A DNA stretch of 64,000 nucleotides from Phycisphaerae bacterium. GTDB lineage: Bacteria; Planctomycetota; Phycisphaerae; UBA1845. The position numbers and the translations under genes were made by a program. The stretch is from NCBI GenBank assembly GCA_046753625.1, contig JBHHUB010000001.1, positions 4,377 through 68,376 of the forward strand, read 5' to 3'. The notes beneath the pieces are model-generated. The model saw only the letters and a program-made list of their open reading frames with translations, was not told the origin of the DNA and did not search any database. Below, in pieces: positions 5,964-56,382 of this stretch (the first letter of the stretch is position 1; every line of letters begins with the position of its first letter).

Positions 5964-6335
5964 GGCATCCCTTCTCCCAAGGGCGGGCAGTTGGGACCGG
6001 AGATGATCTTCGTCCCATAAGAAGCGATCGATTGGAACTGCCGCGACCACATCAATTCCATCTCCCTTGTAGTACCACAAGAAGCGCACAGGCGAAAGTG
6101 GAAAATCCAAAGTGACGGCTTGGCTTTTCGGACGTTGCCGCAGTGGTGGCGTAAGTGGTTTATTGGCAGTAGGTTACGGGATCACCGACCGTGGCGCGGA
6201 TGCCTGCCCGCTCCGTCGTGGCAGATTTTTACAAGGTTTTTCCATGATCTTTGTCAACTCGAGCCACGGTTTGCGTATTACCTTGTGAAACGCTTCCAAT
6301 AACCTCCGGAACGGATCAAACCGCTCTCTGCAGGG

Positions 6336-6380
6336 GGGAGCCTTGGCTGCCACGCAGCAAGGCTCCCTTCCGCTTTTTTA
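6336..6380 (+). terminator. intrinsic terminator-like hairpin with no upstream plus-strand gene
   Basis: GGGAGCCTTGGCTG-ccacg-CAGCAAGGCTCCC (13 bp, one bulge) is followed by TTCCGCTTTTTTA. The T-run exists only on the plus strand. Confidence 0.5.
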
Positions 6381-6411
6381 CCCAGCGCGGCCGGCTGCCA
6401 GGACGCTCGTG

Positions 6412-6510
6412 CTTTGACACACCTAAACTTTCGGGTTCGTTACGAGTCAGAGCCGCGGGCGCCAGCCCTCGGACTGGTCCCACCGCTGGCGCGGTGGGCT
6501 CTGATTCGCG
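6412..6510 (+). repeat. ~100-nt structured repeat, copy A (sense orientation)
   Basis: The sequence is TTGACACACCTAAACTTTCGGGTTCGTTACGAGTCAGAGCCGCGGGCGCCAGCCCTCGGACTGGTCCCACCGCTGGCGCGGTGGGCTCTGATTCGCG. It is near-identical to the reverse complement of 7983..8082 and similar to the reverse complement of 55130..55229. Confidence 0.85.
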
Positions 6511-6652
6511 CGCGCGATGAACTGCAGCACCGGCAACCAAACCATGTACCGGGTTCGTGTGCCGGATTCGTGTCCCTGGCGCGGTCATCCTCGCCGGGCA
6601 GTGACGGTTTCGCGGAGCGTGCCCGGACACCGCGGCACGGGCCTCGCAATCG

Positions 6653-7855
6653 CTAGCAGGAGCGGCGTGAGATTTCGAGAAAGAGGGCGAACTCGGCCTG
6701 GGACAACTCGACCCCACGGCGGGCCATTACTTTGCGCGCGACGTCCCGCAGTTTTTCCGCGTCGCCGGACTGGACACCTCGCTCGTCAAACCAACTCAAC
6801 GTCGGCACGGCCTTGGGCGCCACGCTGGTTGATACCACGTTGCCCGCAAAACCGATCACCGCACCGGTGGGGAGTGCCGCGTTGATGCCGATCTTGGCGT
6901 GATCGCCGATGATCGACCCCAGAAATTGAGCCCCTGTGTCAACATCACGTTTTCCCAGTCGAACGCGTATCGAACCGTAGGTATTCTTGAGGTCGGAGTT
7001 GGTCGAACCGGCTCCCAGATTTACCCAACTACCTACGTAGCTGTGCCCGAGAAACCCGTGGTGTGGCTTGTTGCTGTAGCCGTAGAACGTGCAGGCGTCG
7101 AGTTCGCCGCCGACCTTGCATACCGGTCCGATCGCACAACCGCCGTGCAACCAGGCATGCGGATGAACGTGCGAACCGGGACCGATGTAGGCTGGGCCTT
7201 CGATCACGGCGTAGGGGCCAACGGTGACGTCATGGCTGATGAAGACCGGACCGCCGTTCGTATCCAGGACGGCCGTCGGGTGGATGCGCGTGCGCACGCC
7301 AACGTGCAGCCGGTCGGATGCGCCGCTGACCTCCGGAATCGGTTCTTCGATCACGGCGTCCTCTGCCGTCCATTGCTCCGCGAATCGGTTCGAGGTGTTG
7401 AGTACCAGATCCCATGGGTACTCCAGCATGGTCCCACGCGCGTTATGGGTGGGCTGGCCGGAGATCGCTTGCCGCAACGCGGCGGCGTCCAGCATGGTCT
7501 CCGCCTTCAACGCGCCGGCCAGCGCGCGGTCACAGACGACAAAAGCCACGTCACCACCCAGCGTGCCTATTGCCGGTGCTTCGGGAAATGTGGTCTTGTC
7601 GGGGCACAGCCAGCGCCCGTTTACGAGCACATCGCCGGTGGTCGGAGTGTGATTCACCGGGGCACCGCACCGCTCGGCGGCGACGGACGCCATCCAGTCC
7701 CGCGTCCAGATTCCGGCCACGCTGCGCCCGGTGCATTGGGCGGCTCGATCCATCAGGAGCTTGCGGCCGAGGCGCAGTTCAAACAGGGTGCGCCAGCAGG
7801 TCAGCGGCTCGAGTTTGGACGTGCCGTGGTCCTCGAAGAGTAGGATGCTGTCCAT
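6653..7855 (-). CDS. GlmU-like sugar nucleotidyltransferase / left-handed beta-helix acyltransferase family protein
   Basis: Track ORF of 400 aa. The N-terminal half is nucleotidyltransferase-like. The C-terminal half carries hexapeptide repeats (IGPGSHVHPHAWLHGGCAIGPVCKVGGE...VGSWVNLGAGSTNSDLKN...IGDHAKIGINAALPTGAVIG). Confidence 0.75.
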   Translation of the reverse strand: MDSILLFEDHGTSKLEPLTCWRTLFELRLGRKLLMDRAAQCTGRSVAGIWTRDWMASVAAERCGAPVNHTPTTGDVLVNGRWLCPDKTTFPEAPAIGTLGGDVAFVVCDRALAGALKAETMLDAAALRQAISGQPTHNARGTMLEYPWDLVLNTSNRFAEQWTAEDAVIEEPIPEVSGASDRLHVGVRTRIHPTAVLDTNGGPVFISHDVTVGPYAVIEGPAYIGPGSHVHPHAWLHGGCAIGPVCKVGGELDACTFYGYSNKPHHGFLGHSYVGSWVNLGAGSTNSDLKNTYGSIRVRLGKRDVDTGAQFLGSIIGDHAKIGINAALPTGAVIGFAGNVVSTSVAPKAVPTLSWFDERGVQSGDAEKLRDVARKVMARRGVELSQAEFALFLEISRRSC

Positions 7856-7861
7856 GGGGAA

Positions 7862-7890
7862 ATTATATCGTGGATGACGCGTGCGCCCAA
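7862..7890 (-). promoter_or_regulatory. candidate promoter giving a leaderless glmU-like mRNA
   Basis: Minus strand reads TTGGGC-N17-TATAAT-TTCCCC-ATG. A perfect -10 hexamer lies only 6 nt upstream of the start codon, and there is no Shine-Dalgarno sequence. Confidence 0.4.
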
Positions 7891-7982
7891 GTCCGGCCGC
7901 CCCGTAGCTCAGCCGCCCAGGCTAGTGCTGCATCACACCCCAATCTATGGGTTGTCGCTGCCCGAGCCACCGGAATCGGGCC

Positions 7983-8082
7983 CGCGAATCAGAGCCCACC
8001 GCGCTAGCGGTGGGACCAGTCCGAGGGCAGCCGACCGCGGCTCTGACTCGTAACGAACCCGAAAGTTCAGGTGTGTCAAAGC
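7983..8082 (-). repeat. ~100-nt structured repeat, copy B
   Basis: The reverse complement matches copy A almost base for base. Differences are confined to the central hairpin and the loop of the CCCACCGC/GCGGTGGG hairpin (TGGC vs TAGC). Confidence 0.85.
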
Positions 8083-8120
8083 ACTCGCATGGTCACGCCG
8101 CCGAGGGCTGCTGTGCTCAT

Positions 8121-8160
8121 GGGCAAAAGACAAGGGCTTGCGCAGAAAGCACAAGCCCTT
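8121..8160 (-). terminator. Rho-independent terminator
   Basis: Minus strand reads AAGGGCTTG-tgctttctgcg-CAAGCCCTT followed by GTCTTTTGCCC. Confidence 0.6.
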
Positions 8161-8720
8161 CGTCACGTCTAAACGACCCGACCGCCGCAATGCCGGTGAA
8201 CGCTAACGGACGGAACCCTTTCGATAATGGGGTAAGCCCGCGGAAACCCGGACCGCCAACCTCAAGAGGGGTCGGTACGTCGTTTGGTTTCAACCTTCGA
8301 GCTTTCCAAGGTTCCTCTATAAGTTCCAGCCAACGAATCGCGCCCTGCCGAACATGAAAGTCCGGTCGCTTACGACTGCTACAGTATATCCTACCGGCGG
8401 CCCTCAGCCAAAGCCAAAAAGGGAAAGACTCGTCGAACAGCTCTAACCTTCCGTCGGCAACGGGGTTAGTTGCGCCGGCTTTTCTTGAGGGGGTCTCCGT
8501 ACGCTCGCAATACCGGCCGGTATCACCGGATGTGTGGCAGCATGCGCCTTGGCGACTGAAACGGCGCATACCGCGTGACGCCGTTGAACCCATTATCGGG
8601 CCAGGACACCCACGTGGCGGTGGCCGATAAAACGGGCCGCGCTGGTGGCGTTGCGAAGTTCCACTCGACAAATGGGTAGGGTAAGCGGTCCGTGTTTGCC
8701 TTCTGCGGCGGTTTGCTCAT
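8161..8720 (-). ncRNA. candidate large structured non-coding RNA (unclassified)
   Basis: The region has visibly lower GC than its flanks and no convincing ORF. It contains many local hairpins: ATGCGCC/GGCGCAT, CCGGT/ACCGG, AACCTT/AAGGTT, CCACGTGG. It also has long-range complementarities (CGATAATGGGT at ~8596 with ACCCCATTATCG at ~8232; CGTCACG at 8580 with CGTGACG at 8167). It ends directly at the 8121..8160 terminator. The 5' boundary is unknown. Confidence 0.3.
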
Positions 8721-13807: not shown

Positions 13808-13951
13808 AGGTTGGGGCTGTTTTGCTTAAGGTCGTCGTGTCTCGCAGGCTGGAAGCCGTCAGCCATCTACACGTCGTGGGGCCGTGCGGGCATCGAGCCT
13901 TCGGCCCGGTTTCGACTCGGACCATGCTGCGCTGTCGTATTTCGCGTCATA

Positions 13952-14917
13952 CTACGCGAGCGGTTTCTCCAAGGACAACTCGATGATCCGTTGACAAAGC
14001 CGGTCGAAGCTCATGCCGGCGCGCTGCGCCGCTTTGGGAACCAGGGAGTGGTTCGTGAAACCGGGAATCGTATTGATCTCCAGAATGAAAGGTTCCAGAC
14101 TGTCGGCGTCGACCATGAAATCGACGCGAGAAAGCACGTCGCAACCCAATGCGCGGTGCGATTCAAGCGCAATCTCTTGGATTCGTCGAATCAACTCCGC
14201 CGGCAAATCGAGATCGAAAAGATACTCCGTATCGTTATCGACGTACTTGGCTTCGTAGTTGTAAAACTCCCGCTTGGTTCGGATTTCACACACGGGCAGG
14301 GCTTGATTTCCAATGATGCCGCAGGTCAACTCCGGGCCGGCGATGTAGGCTTCCACCAGCACGCTGCCGTAACGCTCGACCAAGCCCGCTGCGGCCGATT
14401 GAAGCTGGCGCGGTGTCTTGACGATCACCGTGTCAACGCTGCTTCCGGATGCAACCGGTTTGGTCACGGCGGGGACGGGGAATCGCTCGGCCAGGCCGGC
14501 GATCGTCTCGGCCGTCACCAACTCGTAGGGGGGCGTGGGCAGCTTGCATTGCCTCAGGCGATTCTTGGTCTTGACTTTGTCCATGACCAGACGCGACACG
14601 TCCGCCGAGGAGCCGGAGTAGGCCATGTGGCGGCGATCGAGCTCGGCCTGTATCGTGCCGTCCTCGCCGAACGTACCGTGTAGGGCGATGAAGACGAAAT
14701 CGGCCTCGTTTTCCAGAATGGCCAGATCGTCCGGGCCGATGTCGCCTGCGATCACGCGATGCCCCAATAGGTCAAGCGCCGTGGCTACGGCATGGCCGCT
14801 TTGCAGGCTGACCTCCCGTTCTACGCTCGGGCCGCCGGAAAGGACGATGATGTCGAGAACACCACCTGGCGAGCTTGCTGGGGCGATGGTCTGCATGGCG
14901 GCTTGCGTTGTGGTCAT
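13952..14917 (-). CDS. ddl: D-alanine--D-alanine ligase
   Basis: Diagnostic segments are VLSGGPSVEREVSLQSG, ALHGTFGEDGTIQAEL, KPVASGSSVD and EINTIPGFT (ATP-grasp). Confidence 0.93.
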   Translation of the reverse strand: MTTTQAAMQTIAPASSPGGVLDIIVLSGGPSVEREVSLQSGHAVATALDLLGHRVIAGDIGPDDLAILENEADFVFIALHGTFGEDGTIQAELDRRHMAYSGSSADVSRLVMDKVKTKNRLRQCKLPTPPYELVTAETIAGLAERFPVPAVTKPVASGSSVDTVIVKTPRQLQSAAAGLVERYGSVLVEAYIAGPELTCGIIGNQALPVCEIRTKREFYNYEAKYVDNDTEYLFDLDLPAELIRRIQEIALESHRALGCDVLSRVDFMVDADSLEPFILEINTIPGFTNHSLVPKAAQRAGMSFDRLCQRIIELSLEKPLA

Positions 14918-24292: not shown

Positions 24293-24370
24293 TCCCACCG
24301 TGCGTGTCCGCAGGCTGGCGCCGACGGCTCTGATTCGGGGCGCCGAAAGTCCGCAGGCTGGCGCCGGCGG
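24293..24370 (+). repeat. partial copy D of the ~100-nt repeat plus a 22-nt direct repeat
   Basis: TCCCACCG...GGCTCTGATTCGGGG resembles the 3' half of copy A. GTCCGCAGGCTGGCGCCGACGG (24306..24327) is repeated as GTCCGCAGGCTGGCGCCGGCGG (24349..24370). Confidence 0.5.
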
Positions 24371-24403
24371 TTTCGAAACGGCGTACCGGAGCTGCCGGAA
24401 TCA

Positions 24404-40778: not shown

Positions 40779-40820
40779 GGGTCGAAGGTCAAAGGTCAAA
40801 GGTCGAAAATCGAAAATCGG
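40779..40820 (+). repeat. heptamer tandem array GGTCRAA x4 + AATCGAA x2
   Basis: The sequence is GGGTCGAAGGTCAAAGGTCAAAGGTCGAAAATCGAAAATCGG. Related arrays occur at 41714..41748 (inverted) and 59905..59928. Confidence 0.8.
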
Positions 40821-41713: not shown

Positions 41714-41748
41714 TTGACCTTCGCCCTTTGGCTCTTGACCTTCGACCC
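41714..41748 (-). repeat. GAAGGTC-type repeat (inverted relative to 40779..40820)
   Basis: Minus strand reads GGGTCGAAGGTCAAGAGCCAAAGGGCGAAGGTCAA. It starts a few nt after the L,D-transpeptidase stop codon. Confidence 0.65.
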
Positions 41749-46696: not shown

Positions 46697-49600
46697 ATGT
46701 ACACAAAGTTTTTTAGGCTATCTCGGCGTCCGTTTGAAGAACGGGCGGACCCCCAGTTTTACTTTCCGACGCCGCACGGCGATGAGGTGTTGGCGGCTCT
46801 GGAGTACGAATCCCAGTACGGCCAATCCATCGCGCTTTTGATCGGCGAAGCAGGGACGGGAAAGACCCTGCTCATTCGCTCGTTGCTGATGCGCGGGCAG
46901 CCGACCGACCAGAGCGTCGTGCTGACGTGGACGGCAGACGGGAAGGCGAGCGTGATCCGGGAGGCGTGCAAGGCGTTCGGCGTCACGCTGCCTTCGGCGT
47001 TCAGTACCAATCGCGGACTGGCCAGAATCCGCCGGCATCTCAGCCGCATCACGGCCGATGGGCGGCGCGCACTGCTGGTGATTGACCAGGGGGAGAACCT
47101 CTCGAGCGAGAATCTTGCGGAGATCAGCGCGCTGACCTCGCTGCATTTGGGCGACCAGTCTATGCTGACGGTCATGCTCGCCGGTCAGCCGCAGATCAAA
47201 ACGCTGTTGGAGGCAACGGAGCTTTCGAGTCTGCGGCAGCGGCTCTTCGGTGAGCGCGTGCTTACGCCGTTCTCACGATCGGAGACGGGAAACTACATCG
47301 CCCATCGGTTGAAAGTGGCCGGTGCCGCCGACCCCAACTTGTTCGAACCGCCTGCCTTGGATTTGATTCATCGTGTCTCCGGCGGCATTCCACGTTTGCT
47401 CAATCGCCTCGCGGGCGAGGCGATGCTCAGCGCGTATGGGGCGTCGCGAAAAACGGTGACCGGGCCGGTGGTTGCTGAACTGGTCAAAGAGAACGCTTAC
47501 GAAGAGCCGGCGCCGATGGGGGCTTGCAAGATGGATGCCGACGGCAGCGGCGTGGATAGCGCCGTGGCTTCGGATGCGGAGTTCAGCGGCGACGTGGTGA
47601 GCCGAGCATCCACGTCTCGCGATCGACTGGTGTTCGACGATGCGTCGCCGATCAAATCATATGAGTCGGAAACGGATCGCTTAGCTGGTGCGGAATACGA
47701 CGCCGGATCGTCGACGCTTCCGGATCCGAATGGAAGTGCCGTATTTACGACACTTGATCCTTGTGGAAGTAGTGGGCAGGGGGAGGAGATGCTGGAGCGG
47801 GGGCGTTTGCTGCTGGAACAGTTGGAGCGCGCGATGGCTCGTGCGGAGCGGATGAGCGCTACGTCGCAGGCGTCGCTGACGCAGACTACGGCTGTCGAGA
47901 CGCATCTCGAAACGCTTGTCGGTCATGCGGAGCGAATCGCCGGTGAGCTGGGCGGGTCGGTGAGCCGCGCCCATGAGTCACTGAATTCCTTGAACGCCCG
48001 CATCCGTTCGGAGGTTTCGACGACGCAGGACCGGGTGACGGCGGTCGAGGAACGGCTCGCCGCCATTCCGGAGGTGCTCGAGCAGGCGGACCACAGGCTG
48101 GATCGATTGCAGGATGCCTGCAGCAGTGCGGAACATGTGGAGTCCTCTTTGCGCAAGTTTGGGGAGGAGCTTGCCGATCAGGCGGACACGGTGCAGGAGC
48201 GGATCGGCATCGCCGTGGCCGGTACGCAAGCGGGGAAGGAGACCCTCGACCGGGCCACGCAACTGATCGAGACGGTAGAGCGTGAGAAAGCCTCGCAGGA
48301 ACAATTGATCCGGCGGACGGCGGAGCAGGTGGACACCAAGCTGCGCACGTTGAACCAATCCCTGGCGAAGGCGGATCGAGTTATCGAGTCGCTGCAGACC
48401 CAAAGCCGCAACATGACGTCCGAGGCGGAACGGATCAAAGAGGATCTGCTTCGCAAGAGCATCAGCCGGTTCGAGGAATCGCTCCAACAAGCGCTGGATC
48501 GGTTTACCACGGCGCAGCTCGAAGCATTGGATGCCATGGAATCTCGGGAAGTGGAATTGCGATCCCAGGTCCACGCGTTTGAGGAGCGAACGGCCGGGTT
48601 GCAGCGCACGCTACATGCCGCGGATCATGAGATCGACGCGACGCAGAAGAAAACGTCGGCGGTCGCTACCGAATGCAAGAAGCTGCTCGCTGAAGTCGCC
48701 ACGAAGGAGCAAAGGATTACGCACATCAGTCGTGATCTGGACAACAGCATCGAGCGAGGAGAAACCCACAAGACGGATGTCCAGCGTGTGACGGGCAAGG
48801 CCGAGGAACTCCGGCGAAGCGTCGCGGCCATCCTCGTCGATGTGGGCGCCGCCCAGGAGCGTGCGGTCGCCGCACGCGCTCAATTCGACGGGTACAAGGA
48901 GATCGTCTCCGAAATCGACCAAGCGGTGCAGCGCGGACAATCCGCGCTCCGCGATGTGGACGAAATCGTATCCCACGTGGACCAACTGCAAGGCAACATC
49001 GCGGCGGTCGCTCACGAGGCGTCGGCCAAGACGGAGGCGTTTCGTTCCGACGTCGATCGGGTGCATCGCGACCTCGCCGTGGTTGCCGAAGATGCGGCGG
49101 TCAAGACGGAGGCATTCCGCCAAGGCGTTCGCAACGTCCAGCAGGGGGCGGACGAGACCATCGCGCGAATTACCCAAGCGGTGGCGCAGGGGTCGGACGC
49201 CATCGCGATTGTTTCTGCGGAGGCGCAGACTAAAGTGACACAGCTTGACTCCCACAACGCCGCCGCCCGCGTCGTGTTGCAGGAGTTGTCCGAGATGAAC
49301 CAAAAGGGGCACAGTCTTCTCGATCAGGCCAAGGCGGTGCTCGAGGACACGGAAGACAAAACCAAGCAAGCTGCGTCGACGATTGAGTCTCTTTGGGGAT
49401 TGGCCGGCGGGGCCGAAGCCCAGACCAAAGCACTGGCGACCAAGCTGCAGGAGTCTGAAAAAGTGGTCACCCAGCTTGCCGGCGAGGTCAAGAGTGCGCA
49501 AGCGGCGCTCTCCAGGCTTGCGGAACAATCGTCGGGCGCCGACGCGCAGTATCAGATTGTCGAAAAGCGCTGCCGCGACGCGAAAAAAATCGCCGATCGG

Positions 49601-53648: not shown

Positions 53649-55154
53649 GTGATGCGCCAAGGCCCATCGGGCTCGCCTTCCGCGAGTCCTTGTCCGGAGC
53701 CGGTTTGGCTTCGTGTGATTTGCGGCGCGGCTTGGCTGCCGCTTTTCTATTTCGCCTTCCACGTCGCCCGATTGGGGGCGATTGCGAAGGACGTTCGCTC
53801 GTTTCAAATCGCTTACGTTGTCGCATTCCTCGGGTACGCCGGCGTGTTGTGGTTGTGGCTTCGGCGGCCGGCACCTTCGAATCGATCGCGCGCTCGTTGG
53901 CTGATTCCTTGCCTGCTGATCCGGGTGATTCCCCTAGCGGTCGAACCCACTGACGATGCCCATCGGTACTTGTGGGAGGGGCATGTCCAACTGGCGGGCC
54001 ACAATCCGTTTGCCCTGGCTCCTGATAGTGCCATTCTGGAGTCTCTTAGAGATGAGGACTGGGAGCGCATCAACCATCGGGATTACCCGGCGATTTACCC
54101 GCCCCTGGCGCAACTGGAGTTTTGGGCCGCCGCGGCGCTGCATCCTTCGGTGTATACGCTCAAAGTGCTTCACACCATTTGGGATGCGTTGGGTGTGGTT
54201 GTGCTTGCGTCCATCCTTGCCGCCGGGGGCGTCGCGCCGGCGCGTGCGCTGCTTTACGGGGCTTGCCCGCTTGTACTCACGGCGTTTTGCGTGGAGGGGC
54301 ATGTGGACAGCCTGATGATTCTGCTGCTGTTGCTTTGCTGGCGGTGGGATCAGCGCGGTCATCGCATGGCCGCGGGGATCGCGTTGGGCGGAAGCATTGC
54401 GGCCAAACTGTTTCCCGTCGTCTTCTTGCCGTGGTTCTTTTTTCGATCCAAGCGCGTGCTTTGCGCGGCCCTTGTGACCGTTGCGATCTTATACCTGCCG
54501 TATTGCAGCGCCGGTAGTTCGCTGTTCGGGAGCCTTGGTCGGTTCTCATCAACAGATTCGTTCTTCAGCTTTCTAGGTACGATGTTGGAACTGGACTTTT
54601 CGAATCCGGCCGTACGTCTTGGTCTTGCGGTTTCGCTTGCGGTGGTGCTGACGGCGCTGGCGGTAGGGGGGGCGCGTGGGTCGGCTCGCACGGGCGATGC
54701 ACCGGCAACGGTGGGGGAGGGGGCTGACGTTCGAAGGCGGCTCGGGCTGAAGCTCGTGGCTGGTAGGGGGCGCCGCGCGTGGCGGGCGTATGTGTGGCCA
54801 AGGGGGGACCGGACGGACGGCCTGGATTTCGGTCGATACGGCGTTGCTGCGACGGGCTTGCTTGTCTTGACAATCCCTGTCGTGCATTACTGGTACTTTG
54901 CGTTGCCGATGGTGTTTCTGGCTGTCCGTTGGCACCTGGCGTGGATGATGGCCGCGCTCCTGATCGTCGTCTATTTTGGCGCACAAGAGGCACAGGTGGC
55001 AACCGGAACGTGGGCGATGCCCGTTGATGCGCCGCTCTGGGTGTGGCGAGGCTTTGTCGCGGCCTGGGTTGCTCAAGTATGGCTTGATTACAGGTGCATT
55101 CGGCCTGCGCCGCTCACCGAGAACGGGGGCGCGAATCAGAGTCCACCGCGCTAG
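53649..55154 (+). CDS. GT-C-type polyprenyl-phosphate-sugar-dependent glycosyltransferase (DUF2029/PIG-M-like)
   Basis: About 12 TM helices. The first loop reads PTDDAHRYLWEGHVQLAGHNPFA...NHRDYPAIYPPLAQLEF. The last ~8 codons and the stop lie inside repeat copy C. Confidence 0.7.
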   Translation: MMRQGPSGSPSASPCPEPVWLRVICGAAWLPLFYFAFHVARLGAIAKDVRSFQIAYVVAFLGYAGVLWLWLRRPAPSNRSRARWLIPCLLIRVIPLAVEPTDDAHRYLWEGHVQLAGHNPFALAPDSAILESLRDEDWERINHRDYPAIYPPLAQLEFWAAAALHPSVYTLKVLHTIWDALGVVVLASILAAGGVAPARALLYGACPLVLTAFCVEGHVDSLMILLLLLCWRWDQRGHRMAAGIALGGSIAAKLFPVVFLPWFFFRSKRVLCAALVTVAILYLPYCSAGSSLFGSLGRFSSTDSFFSFLGTMLELDFSNPAVRLGLAVSLAVVLTALAVGGARGSARTGDAPATVGEGADVRRRLGLKLVAGRGRRAWRAYVWPRGDRTDGLDFGRYGVAATGLLVLTIPVVHYWYFALPMVFLAVRWHLAWMMAALLIVVYFGAQEAQVATGTWAMPVDAPLWVWRGFVAAWVAQVWLDYRCIRPAPLTENGGANQSPPR

Positions 55155-55229
55155 CGGTGGGACCAGTCCGCGGGCTGTCGCCCGCGGATCTGATCCGTAA
55201 CCAAGCCGAAAGTCTAGGTGTGTCCAATC
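55130..55229 (-). repeat. ~100-nt structured repeat, copy C
   Basis: The reverse complement aligns to copy A along its length. The central hairpin is perfect here (TCCGCGGGC-gaca-GCCCGCGGA). The outer stem has AG->GA swaps that keep A-U/G.U pairing. Confidence 0.8.
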
Positions 55230-55230
55230 A

Positions 55231-56382
55231 CTAGGGTTGGGCGGCCATCTTGGCTTCGCGATCTTCCTGGGAGCCGCCGGGCGTGTCGAATGTTTTCTTG
55301 AACACGGGGGGGCCGACGGGGGACGCCTGGGCGATGGTAAAGTATCCGTCGTCTCGAATTTTGCCGCTGATGATCGCCAGGTCCGCCAGAACCAGATTGA
55401 GCCGATCCATGGCCAAAACGGCCGATTCATAGAGTCGCTCGTCCTTGGCGATCAGTCCCGCGGTTCCCTTCCCTTGTTCGATGTCGTTGATCAGATGGAC
55501 CAGGCCGGTTGCGGCCTGTCCGACCTGAGCCAGAAACTGATCGAGGAGCTCGAATGATCCATCGAGTTTGGATTCGGTGCGATCGATTGCGCCGGTGGCG
55601 GTGTCGGCCAGCTTGGCGGATTGCCGTTTCCAGAGTTCGACCGTCTCTTTCAGCGTCGCGCTGGCATCCTTCAAGTCCCGGACAACGCCCTTGACGTCCG
55701 ATTGGACTTCCACGTCGCCGAGAACCGCGTTGAGGTTGGCGACGAGCTGGTCCATCCGCTCGACGACGGTGGAAATGTTGGCCATGGGCGGGGGCTCGCC
55801 CAGCGCGGGATGATCCACGTCGGCTACGCTTCTCTGTTTGATCAGTTCATCGAGGCTTGCGGCCACCGGCTCGGCGGCGACGGCGAGGTTACCGATGCCA
55901 TCGAGCGTTCTTTGGAAGGATTGTACCATCGATGGCGTAATGATTTCATTGAGCATGCTCGCCATTTCGCCGCGCATCGTGGCCTTTTCGCGCGGCATCA
56001 AGGCGGAGGTGACGTTCTCCTCGACGACGATGTTGATCTGTCCGGTTCCGATGCCCAGCGTTGCGCCGTAGACTTTGGCGTAGGCGCCCATGGGTACGGA
56101 AAACTCCCGACTGATCAGAGTGCGGATGACGACACCTTTTTCGGGGGCTGTGCGGTCCTGAAAATCCAGGCCGGAAACCCGTCCGATTTCAACGCCGTTG
56201 AGTTTGACCGGGGTTCCTTCGGCGACGCCGCGCAGATCACGCACGCCGACAATGCTGAGCTCCCAATCGGTCGTGCGCAGCCATGTCGGGGCTTCGCCGA
56301 ACCACACCATCAACACGCCGAGCGCGCCTATGGACGCGACGACGAAAACACCGACCAACAAGTCTCGCGATTTTTCTTTCAT
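55231..56382 (-). CDS. mlaD: MCE/MlaD-family protein with long C-terminal helical region
   Basis: An N-terminal TM is present (LLVGVFVVASIGALGVLMVWF). The Mce domain reads GVAEGTPVKLNGVEIGRVSGLDF. Confidence 0.8.
   Translation of the reverse strand: MKEKSRDLLVGVFVVASIGALGVLMVWFGEAPTWLRTTDWELSIVGVRDLRGVAEGTPVKLNGVEIGRVSGLDFQDRTAPEKGVVIRTLISREFSVPMGAYAKVYGATLGIGTGQINIVVEENVTSALMPREKATMRGEMASMLNEIITPSMVQSFQRTLDGIGNLAVAAEPVAASLDELIKQRSVADVDHPALGEPPPMANISTVVERMDQLVANLNAVLGDVEVQSDVKGVVRDLKDASATLKETVELWKRQSAKLADTATGAIDRTESKLDGSFELLDQFLAQVGQAATGLVHLINDIEQGKGTAGLIAKDERLYESAVLAMDRLNLVLADLAIISGKIRDDGYFTIAQASPVGPPVFKKTFDTPGGSQEDREAKMAAQP

What the first reader, a model, noticed from the sequence alone, without database searches (positions are those of the whole stretch)
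6412..6510. Novel ~100-nt structured repeat family (three full copies, one partial) with RNA-type covariation
Copies lie at 6412..6510(+), 7983..8082(-) and 55130..55229(-), and they share the same architecture:
- A ~30-nt 5' leader (TTGACACACCT.AACTTTCGG.TT.GTTAC).
- An 11-bp outer helix (CGAGTCAGAGC with GCTCTGATTCG).
- A variable central GC hairpin, which is perfect in copy C (TCCGCGGGC-gaca-GCCCGCGGA).
- The linker ACTGGT.
- A conserved 8-bp hairpin (CCCACCGC-tRgc-GCGGTGGG).

In the outer helix, copies A and B have AG opposite TT (A-U plus G.U). Copy C has GA opposite the same TT (G.U plus A-U). Pairing is therefore kept only if the element is read as RNA in the copy-A orientation. A partial 3' half lies at 24293..24340. 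All copies are intergenic. I do not recognise it as any named RNA family, and it has no terminal inverted repeats like a typical MITE.
Basis: seen in the sequence. Interest (0 to 1): 0.65.

Follow-up and report, generated by a model that had tools for sequence, protein, structure and literature searches.

The report
Miniature transposon, not an RNA gene
The ~100-nt "structured repeat" is the left end and hairpin-rich centre of a ~160-bp miniature inverted-repeat transposable element (MITE) scattered through a Phycisphaerae genome and some other metagenome-derived genomes, so it is an ordinary kind of selfish DNA and not a new RNA gene.

Summary
The three copies are real: A 6409-6518(+), B 7975-8084(-), C 55122-55231(-). 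They are 84-94% identical and share the described fold (outer helix, two 8-bp GC hairpins, ACUGGU linker). No Rfam family matches.

I searched with peptides translated from the repeat and recovered eight more copies in other genomes and metagenomes. Full copies run 138-197 nt. They consist of a ~34-nt terminal inverted repeat (TA|GTGCTTTGWCACACCTNAAYCTTCGGGTT...), the 66-nt core, a spacer hairpin, and the inverted repeat again. TA flanks 14 of 18 ends, mostly within CTAG. Window copy B is complete (7925-8084, right repeat 7925-7956, then TA). Copies A and C have lost the right end.

Copies lie in unrelated intergenic sites in either orientation. A and B are absent from the syntenic loci of the closest relative, and short-read assemblies break at the copies.

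Compensatory changes occur in the hairpins, but G·T (9) and A·C (10) mismatches are balanced. The pairing therefore favours neither strand, and there is no promoter or terminator.

Best reading: a TA/CTAG-targeting MITE of IS630/Tc1-mariner or IS5 type, whose parent transposase was not found. It is a new member of a known kind and of low interest.

The parts
7925..8084 (-). Copy B, the only complete element in the window (160 nt).
   Evidence: Sub-parts on the minus strand: left inverted repeat 8051-8084, core 7985-8050, spacer with third hairpin 7957-7984, right inverted repeat 7925-7956. The right end is followed by TA at 7923-7924. The left flank is GA. Searches (nhmmer on the repeat: E = 8.7e-10 left, 5.1e-7 right; full-length HMM E = 5.9e-47).
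6409..6518 (+). Copy A, with left inverted repeat and core only; the right end is decayed.
   Evidence: Sub-parts: left inverted repeat 6409-6442, outer helix 5' strand 6443-6452, hairpin 1 6453-6472, linker 6473-6478, hairpin 2 6479-6498, outer helix 3' strand 6499-6508. Covariance model 138 bits. The full-length HMM matches only model positions 2-116 and finds no right repeat. The left flank lacks TA.
55094..55233 (-). Copy C, with TA, left inverted repeat, core and part of the spacer; no recognisable right repeat.
   Evidence: Sub-parts: TA 55232-55233, left inverted repeat 55198-55231, core 55132-55197, part of the spacer down to about 55094. Covariance model 130.5 bits. The full-length HMM matches model positions 2-139. 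The flanking CTAG contains the TAG stop codon of gene 55231-56382(-).
24306..24380 (-). Two tandem partial remnants (24306-24337 and 24349-24380) that match the outer-helix 5' strand plus hairpin 1. They have no inverted repeats.
   Evidence: nhmmer E = 1.7e-4 and 0.05. The first piece is 29 of 32 nt identical to the family consensus when read on the minus strand, from direct comparison of the sequences. The covariance model was not significant.

Best explanation
The repeat is a non-autonomous DNA transposon, a MITE.

Anatomy of a complete copy (138-197 nt):
- a 66-nt GC-rich core, made of a 10-bp outer helix that encloses two 8-bp hairpins joined by ACNGGT;
- a short spacer with a third hairpin;
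- the inverted repeat again, in reverse orientation.

The element is flanked by TA, usually inside CTAG.

Inferred mechanism: a DDE transposase encoded elsewhere binds the two inverted repeats, excises the element, and inserts it at TA in CTAG with duplication of TA. The enzyme would be of the IS630/Tc1-mariner type. An IS5-type enzyme that duplicates CTAG fits the data equally well.

The hairpins are palindromic DNA that folds equally well on either strand. Their compensatory changes reflect maintenance of the palindrome, not a strand-specific RNA.

Shown here: the anatomy, the TA/CTAG flanks, dispersal to unrelated loci and genomes, and absence at syntenic sites.
Inferred only: the transposase family, whether TA or CTAG is the duplicated target, and current activity.

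In the window, B is complete, A and C are decayed one-ended copies, and 24306-24380 is a fragment.
For: 1. Inverted repeats. Eighteen ends from 10 copies align to one consensus. A profile built from them finds paired, inward-facing hits around every core. The full-length alignment shows repeat, core, spacer, repeat. A full copy folds into one long rod closed by CTAGTG...CACTAG.
2. Flanks. In the alignment, TA abuts 14 of 18 ends and CTAG spans 9 of 18. Each of 8 two-ended copies has TA at one end at least, and 4 have it at both. In L015 two elements abut and share a single TA, as expected if one inserted at the other's flanking CTAG.
3. Dispersal. Copies lie in 11 different contexts and in both orientations: after a small-RNA terminator, before a promoter, at a stop codon, between recR and ybaB, and between mraZ and rsmH.
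4. Presence and absence. The closest relative (L013; the NTP_transf_4 protein is 74% identical and gene order is the same) lacks A and B, although adjacent non-coding blocks align at about 93%. The L018 copies beside mraZ are absent from the syntenic window region at 27.7-31.1 kb.
5. Multi-copy status. Logan short-read contigs of the same organism end inside copies A, B or C.
6. Wider occurrence. Spurious ORFs that encode the element occur in 13 protein clusters from NCBI and ENA assemblies.
7. No RNA-gene signals. There is no promoter or terminator, no Rfam family, and no strand bias in wobble pairs.
8. Literature. IS630/Tc1-mariner elements insert at TA and duplicate it, and IS630 prefers TA within CTAG (PMC2170065 and the Tenzen and Ohtsubo 1991 paper it cites). 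The IS5-derived MITEPsy1 duplicates CTAG (PMC3189936).
Against: - No autonomous element with the same inverted repeats and a transposase gene was found in about 245 kb of fetched sequence. The only transposase nearby, a RAYT-like Y1_Tnp in L016, is flanked by different repeats.
- TA and CTAG are palindromic, so they could be the outermost bases of the inverted repeats and not a target duplication. No clean filled-versus-empty site pair was obtained, because the L013 flanks are too diverged next to the insertion.
- A and C lack a right repeat, and A and B lack TA on the left.
- One copy (L017) is also flanked by an imperfect 17-nt direct repeat outside the TA, which a simple 2-bp duplication does not explain.
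- The core is more conserved than the inverted repeats (91% versus 70% mean pairwise identity). That is unusual for a MITE. It is partly an ascertainment effect, because the extra copies were found through core-encoded peptides.
Confidence: 0.8

Rival explanations
1. A family of strand-specific structured small RNA genes. The 'leader' supplies a promoter, and the three-way junction is the functional RNA.
For: - The fold is stable: z = -2.4 to -3.9.
- Hairpins 1 and 2 show compensatory changes: C-G to A-U, A-U to G-C, and C-G to U-A.
- Within the window, the AG to GA swap keeps pairing only with G·U.
- A and B carry TTGACA.
Against: - TTGACA is not conserved in C, L014, L016 or L018-L020, and no -10 element or terminator is present.
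- Wobble-type mismatches are equal on the two strands, 9 versus 10.
- The opposite strand folds about as well, and the covariance model also hits it.
- Copies occur in either orientation relative to neighbouring genes and are absent from syntenic loci of relatives.
- The 'leader' recurs inverted at the other end, with TA flanks.
Confidence: 0.04
2. A REP/REPIN-type or 'TIRtron'-type palindromic element, mobilised as single-stranded DNA by a RAYT/TIRYT HUH tyrosine transposase that recognises the hairpins.
For: - The whole element is an imperfect palindrome with conserved hairpins and lies between genes.
- Hairpin stems are kept by compensatory change on both strands.
- Planctomycetes are reported to carry many tyrosine transposases with flanking repeats (PMC3733652).
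- A Y1_Tnp gene lies 3.5 kb from the copy in L016.
Against: - That Y1_Tnp gene is flanked by its own, unrelated REP hairpins (GCCCTGAAGGGGC and CCCAGGGTGAAACCCTGGG). No repeat or core hit lies near it.
- There is no GTAG or CGTC tag next to a short stem-loop.
- The ~34-nt ends are not themselves palindromes.
- TA/CTAG at both ends is a hallmark of DDE transposons, not of HUH elements, which make no target duplication (own knowledge of IS200/IS605 and REPINs).
Confidence: 0.08
3. A MITE whose conserved Y-shaped core has been co-opted by the host or the element. The core might act as a bidirectional transcription barrier, an RNA-stabilising structure, or a binding site for a host or transposase protein. 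On this view the core, not only the inverted repeats, is under selection.
For: - The core is 91% identical across genomes whose proteins are only 50-73% identical, while the inverted repeats are 70% identical.
- Loops and linker are conserved as well as stems.
- Copies sit right after terminators and between convergent genes.
Against: - Ascertainment bias: the extra copies could only be found through core-encoded peptides.
- Elements with the same termini but different cores exist (L017 10700-10810, L015 446 to about 590).
- There is no T-run terminator.
- No functional data exist.
Confidence: 0.15

Closest known systems
Correia (NEMIS) elements of Neisseria
   Same: Size of about 100-160 bp, terminal inverted repeats of about 26-35 bp, TA at both ends, intergenic and often abutting genes, folds into a long hairpin, and no parent transposase known. 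This rests on my own knowledge and was not tested here.
   Different: There is no sequence similarity. Correia elements carry an IHF site and outward promoters, which were not seen here. This family has a GC-rich twin-hairpin core and lives in Phycisphaerae.
IS630/Tc1-mariner-derived MITEs (Stowaway-like; bacterial examples are RUP and Nezha)
   Same: TA flanks and a preference for TA inside CTAG, as reported for IS630 (PMC2170065 and the Tenzen and Ohtsubo 1991 paper it cites). Short inverted repeats, no coding capacity, mobilised in trans.
   Different: No IS630-type transposase with matching inverted repeats has been identified. TA as a true duplication is unproven, because it could be part of the repeat.
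IS5-derived MITEs such as MITEPsy1 of Pseudomonas syringae
   Same: A ~100-nt element with inverted repeats that inserts at CTAG/YTAA and duplicates 4 nt (PMC3189936). The CTAG seen at both ends here fits this equally well.
   Different: The inverted-repeat sequences are unrelated (GGAAGGTCTGAAAAAGCC versus GTGCTTTGWCACACC...). This element is longer and has a structured core.
REPIN/BIME and 'TIRtron' repeats (mobilised by RAYT/TIRYT)
   Same: Palindromic, intergenic and hairpin-forming, with stems kept on both strands. Such repeats are reported in Planctomycetes (PMC3733652).
   Different: No GTAG or CGTC tag. The one RAYT-like gene examined has different flanking repeats. TA/CTAG flanks are not expected for HUH elements.
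Acido-Lenti-1 RNA motif (Rfam RF01687)
   Same: Hairpin 2 (CCCACCGCUGGCGCGGUGGGCU) resembles that motif's first hairpin.
   Different: The score is 22.5 bits against a gathering threshold of 37. The second half of the model is deleted in the match. The opposite strand and hairpin 1 also give weak hits, which marks it as a generic GC-hairpin resemblance.

Membership tests
MITE (generic) | Small size (under about 300 bp) and no coding capacity | tested here: met
   Full copies are 138-197 nt. Substitutions between copies do not follow codon positions, and the ORFs that cross them are spurious.
MITE (generic) | Terminal inverted repeats | tested here: met
   Inverted repeats of about 32-34 nt are present in B and in 7 copies outside the window. 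They are not detectable at the right end of A and C, which are decayed.
MITE (generic) | Target-site duplication | tested here: inconclusive
   TA lies at 14 of 18 ends and CTAG at 9 of 18. Both motifs are palindromic, so they could belong to the inverted repeat. No clean empty site was obtained.
MITE (generic) | Many dispersed copies at non-homologous sites, with presence/absence differences between relatives | tested here: met
   There are 3 copies plus a remnant in 64 kb and 8 more loci elsewhere. Copies are absent at syntenic sites in L013 and in the window relative to L018. Short-read contigs break at copies. The genome-wide copy number was not measured.
MITE (generic) | An autonomous partner IS with the same inverted repeats | tested here: not met
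   None was found in about 245 kb of window plus loci.
IS630/Tc1-mariner-derived MITE | 2-bp TA duplication, with a CTAG preference | tested here: inconclusive
   The flanks are compatible. Two abutting elements in L015 share one TA. A 4-bp CTAG duplication of the IS5 type cannot be told apart from this.
REP/REPIN (RAYT-mobilised) | A GTAG or CGTC tag next to a short palindrome, and a RAYT gene flanked by the repeat | tested here: not met
   There is no such tag. The RAYT-like gene in L016 is flanked by unrelated REPs.
Acido-Lenti-1 RNA (RF01687) | Score at or above the Rfam gathering threshold over the whole model | tested here: not met
   22.5 and 19.5 bits against a threshold of 37, on hairpin 2 only.
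Independent structured sRNA gene | Own promoter and terminator, and covariation specific to the transcribed strand | tested here: not met
   No promoter or terminator. G·T 9 versus A·C 10. Expression itself cannot be tested with these tools.

The most novel reading that the evidence does not exclude
The Y-shaped twin-hairpin core (66 nt; loops GCCA and UAGC, linker ACNGGU) may be a selected functional module that rides on a MITE. It could be a cruciform or RNA structure bound by a host or transposase protein, or a bidirectional transcript-end element. That would explain why the core stays about 91% identical in genomes whose proteins have diverged to 50-73% identity while the inverted repeats drift to about 70%.
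Probability: 0.15. Interest if true: 0.5.

Novelty: new member of a known kind. Interest (0 to 1): 0.22.

Why it matters
- It removes a false lead. This is not a new RNA class.
- It documents a MITE family in Phycisphaerae (Planctomycetota). I found no paper that describes small mobile elements in this group. The one full-text search on MITEs and Planctomycetes returned nothing relevant.
- The element fragments short-read assemblies of these genomes.
- It inserts at stop codons and next to small-RNA terminators and promoters, so it can remodel gene ends. Copy C supplies part of one stop codon and the last codons of a convergent ORF.
- The inverted-repeat profile and covariance model built here could be used to mask the element in RNA-motif screens and to look for the parent transposase.

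Tried and rejected
- Rfam at gathering and E-value thresholds gave no family. Only a sub-threshold Acido-Lenti-1 hairpin match appeared.
- My exact-pattern scans returned only chance hits: genome contigs (CTGGTCCCN{10,20}GGNCTCTGATTCG) and metagenome contigs (CTGGTCCCACCGCTNGCGCGG), checked. In hindsight both patterns were too strict, because the copies found later differ at those very positions. These scans therefore say nothing about how rare the family is.
- Viral contigs gave no hits. Plasmids gave no hits.
- Promoter reading of TTGACA: rejected.
- Coding reading: frames are open, but substitutions are not synonymous-biased.
- Link to the RAYT-like gene in L016: rejected, because its flanking repeats are different.
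- A hairpin within the 'leader' (ACCYG...CGGGU) is present in some copies but is not consistently kept. This comes from inspecting the sequences, and I did not pursue it.
- An alternative long-hairpin fold of copy A (GCGCCAGC pairing with GCUGGCGC, the centroid) cannot form in copy B, whose sequence differs there.
- Extending the genome beyond the window: 3.3 kb more sequence held no further copy. One protein look-up failed.

Full report
OBSERVATION

A 39-nt core pattern and a 19-nt 'leader' pattern each match exactly three sites in the window, against 0.00 and 0.04 expected by chance. Repeat finding and alignment set the shared block at about 110 nt: A 6409-6518(+), B 7975-8084(-), C 55122-55231(-). 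A and B are 94% identical, and C is 84-86% identical to them.

Each copy can form a 10-bp outer helix that encloses hairpin 1 (8 bp, imperfect in A and B, perfect in C), the linker ACUGGU, and hairpin 2 (8 bp). Folding z-scores are -2.4 to -3.9 on the stated strand and -1.4 to -4.5 on the opposite strand. A covariance model of the three copies also hits the opposite strand of each core at 34-48 bits. The core is therefore structurally palindromic.

Rfam gives nothing at gathering thresholds in the whole window. At relaxed thresholds it gives only a 22.5-bit match of hairpin 2 to Acido-Lenti-1, whose gathering score is 37.

ORGANISM AND CONTEXT

The flanking 400-aa NTP_transf_4 protein is identical to a protein of a 'MAG: Phycisphaerae bacterium' (MFQ5460997.1; contig of 73,481 nt).

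- A lies 30 nt after the terminator of a conserved small-RNA-like block. It faces the 3' end of the NTP_transf_4 gene.
- B lies between the terminator of a second conserved non-coding block and that gene's own promoter. The promoter has TATAAT 7 nt before the ATG and is conserved in the relative. B is therefore not this gene's leader.
- C starts at the stop codon of an MlaD-like gene and overlaps the end of a convergent ORF.

Short-read (Logan) contigs of the same organism end inside or beside copies A, B and C. This is what assemblers do at multi-copy repeats.

FINDING RELATIVES

My two exact-pattern scans of the genome and metagenome collections returned only chance hits. In hindsight the patterns were too strict.

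I then translated the repeat in its open frames and searched the protein databases for spurious ORFs that run through copies. This gave seven such ORFs (P0121-P0127). A later profile search of the 50%-identity representatives gave six more (P0136-P0141).

I fetched the DNA of the seven ORFs and scanned it with the covariance model. It held eight new copies at 62-109 bits, in L014, L015, L016, L017, L018 (two copies), L019 and L020. These come from two NCBI assemblies (GCA_029260075.1, GCA_044232495.1) and four ENA metagenome assemblies.

L018 is syntenic with the window's dcw cluster at only 50-73% protein identity. The family therefore spans quite divergent genomes.

THE KEY FINDING

In the new copies the 'leader' recurs on the far side of the core in inverted orientation. 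Eighteen ends align to one consensus, (C)TA|GTGCTTTGWCACACCTNAAYCTTCGGGTTGTCG. A profile of these ends finds paired, inward-facing hits around every core, including a diverged right end for window copy B at 7925-7956.

A full-length alignment shows: left inverted repeat (~34 nt), core (66 nt), spacer with a third covarying hairpin (absent in L020; L018a carries an extra 36-nt internal duplication), and right inverted repeat (~32 nt). Total length is 138-197 nt. A complete copy folds as one long rod closed by CTAGTG...CACTAG.

TA abuts 14 of 18 ends, and CTAG spans the junction at 9 of 18. Each of eight two-ended copies has TA on at least one side, and four have it on both. In L015 two elements abut head-to-head and share one TA.

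Elements with the same termini but different centres also occur (L017 10700-10810; L015 446 to about 590).

Within the window, A matches the full-length model only to position 116 and C only to position 139. Neither has a detectable right repeat.

MOBILITY

The closest available relative is L013 (GCA_964651325.1). Its NTP_transf_4 protein is 74% identical, and the gene order HisKA, NTP_transf_4, hypothetical gene, radical SAM is the same. It has no copy anywhere in 21 kb. Alignment of the two intergenic regions shows about 93%-identical non-coding blocks right next to A and B, but the elements themselves are missing. At the site of B, L013 instead carries about 95 nt of unrelated sequence. Conversely, the two L018 copies beside mraZ have no counterpart in the syntenic window region.

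The immediate flanks are too diverged to read a precise empty site. Whether TA (or CTAG) is a duplication or the outermost part of the repeat therefore remains formally open.

RNA OR DNA?

With 12 sequences the proposed structure is 90.7% paired. Six pairs have changes on both sides: hairpin 1 C-G to A-U, hairpin 2 A-U to G-C and C-G to U-A, and the outer helix A-U and G·U to G-C. These values were reached by 13 of 500 shuffles for pairs and 6 of 500 for cells. The stems are therefore maintained.

The test that separates RNA from DNA fails, however. G·T cells (wobble if the A strand is RNA) number 9 and A·C cells (wobble if the other strand is RNA) number 10. That gives 90.7% versus 91.0% paired.

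There is no sigma-70-type promoter using the TTGACA and no T-run terminator. The TTGACA is not conserved outside A and B.

MECHANISM

The anatomy is that of a MITE moved in trans by a DDE transposase that recognises the inverted repeats. Insertion at TA with a CTAG preference is the signature of IS630/Tc1-mariner elements (PMC2170065, which cites Tenzen and Ohtsubo 1991). A 4-bp CTAG duplication is the signature of IS5-type elements and their MITEs (PMC3189936). The data cannot separate these two.

No parent element was found in the ~245 kb I could read. The RAYT-like Y1 transposase 3.5 kb from the L016 copy is bracketed by unrelated REP hairpins and is not linked to this family. I therefore give the REPIN/TIRtron alternative (PMC3733652) a low weight.

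UNEXPLAINED

- The core is more conserved than the ends (91% versus 70% mean pairwise identity). This is partly ascertainment, because the extra copies were found through core-encoded peptides. Within the window the bias is absent and the difference is smaller. I keep a 15% possibility that the core has a selected function.
- The L017 copy is flanked, outside its TA, by an imperfect 17-nt direct repeat that duplicates the ybaB stop region.

VERDICT

The repeat is real. Its interpretation as a novel strand-specific structured RNA is not supported. It is a previously unnamed MITE family of Phycisphaerae, a new member of a known kind and of modest interest.

Noticed in passing
window 8125-8411 (- strand): Candidate non-coding RNA of about 258 nt. 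It has a TTGGCT-17-TATACT promoter (about 8383-8411) and an intrinsic terminator (8125-8161). It is about 93% identical to L013 9553-9810, although flanking proteins are only about 74% identical. No Rfam family matches at E <= 1. The consensus fold is a long closed rod (6S-like shape), and every variable paired position keeps its pairing.
   Followed up: partly
window 6255-6379 (+ strand): Candidate small RNA of about 125 nt that ends in a strong terminator (6336-6379). It is highly conserved in L013 11277-11404(-) and matches no Rfam family. MITE copy A sits 30 nt downstream of it.
   Followed up: partly
window 7852-7870 (- strand): The NTP_transf_4 gene (6653-7855) has a conserved TATAAT only 7 nt before its ATG, in both the window and L013. 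This suggests a leaderless mRNA.
   Followed up: no
window 55132-55233: Copy C sits exactly at the CTAG that contains the TAG stop of the MlaD-like gene (55231-56382, -). The element's first G completes that stop codon. The convergent ORF 53649-55154(+) takes its last codons and its stop from inside the MITE core.
   Followed up: partly
window 6409-6518 and 7975-8084: A and B are 94%-identical inverted repeats 1456 nt apart that bracket a single gene. Their right-hand parts have diverged much more than the left repeat plus core. This could reflect gene conversion between them, and the pair is a potential substrate for inversion.
   Followed up: no
L016 13300-14500: A RAYT-like Y1_Tnp gene (13935-14387) is bracketed by its own REP-type hairpins (GCCCTGAAGGGGC and CCCAGGGTGAAACCCTGGG, several copies). 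This is a second, unrelated repeat system in a genome that carries the MITE.
   Followed up: partly
L017 10130-10360: Outside its TA flanks, this MITE copy is bordered by an imperfect 17-nt direct repeat (GGCGG[A/T]TCGTAACGTAC). The repeat duplicates the stop-codon region of ybaB. A 2-bp target duplication does not explain it.
   Followed up: no
L017 10700-10810; L015 446-590: Short elements with the same GTGC...CGGGTT / ...GCAC termini but different central sequences. They may be sister MITE subfamilies that use the same ends.
   Followed up: partly
L018 9270-9466: This copy carries an internal 36-nt duplication of hairpin 2 plus the outer-helix 3' strand. It lies between mraZ and rsmH inside the dcw cluster.
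   Followed up: no
L013 2469-2502 and 3737-3770; L013 6644-6768: The relative without the MITE has its own repeated GC hairpin (CCGCGGGCTTCAGCCCGCGCGG, two copies). It also has a multi-hairpin intergenic block closed by TCAGAGC...GCTCTGA, which is reminiscent of the MITE's outer helix.
   Followed up: no
window 40779-40807 and 41720-41748: An inverted pair of AAGGTC heptad-like repeats (GGGTCGAAGGTCAAAGGTCAAAGGTCGAA), 912 nt apart. It was not examined.
   Followed up: no
window 48971-49119: Two tandem units of about 75 nt, 72% identical. This is probably a coding repeat and was not examined.
   Followed up: no
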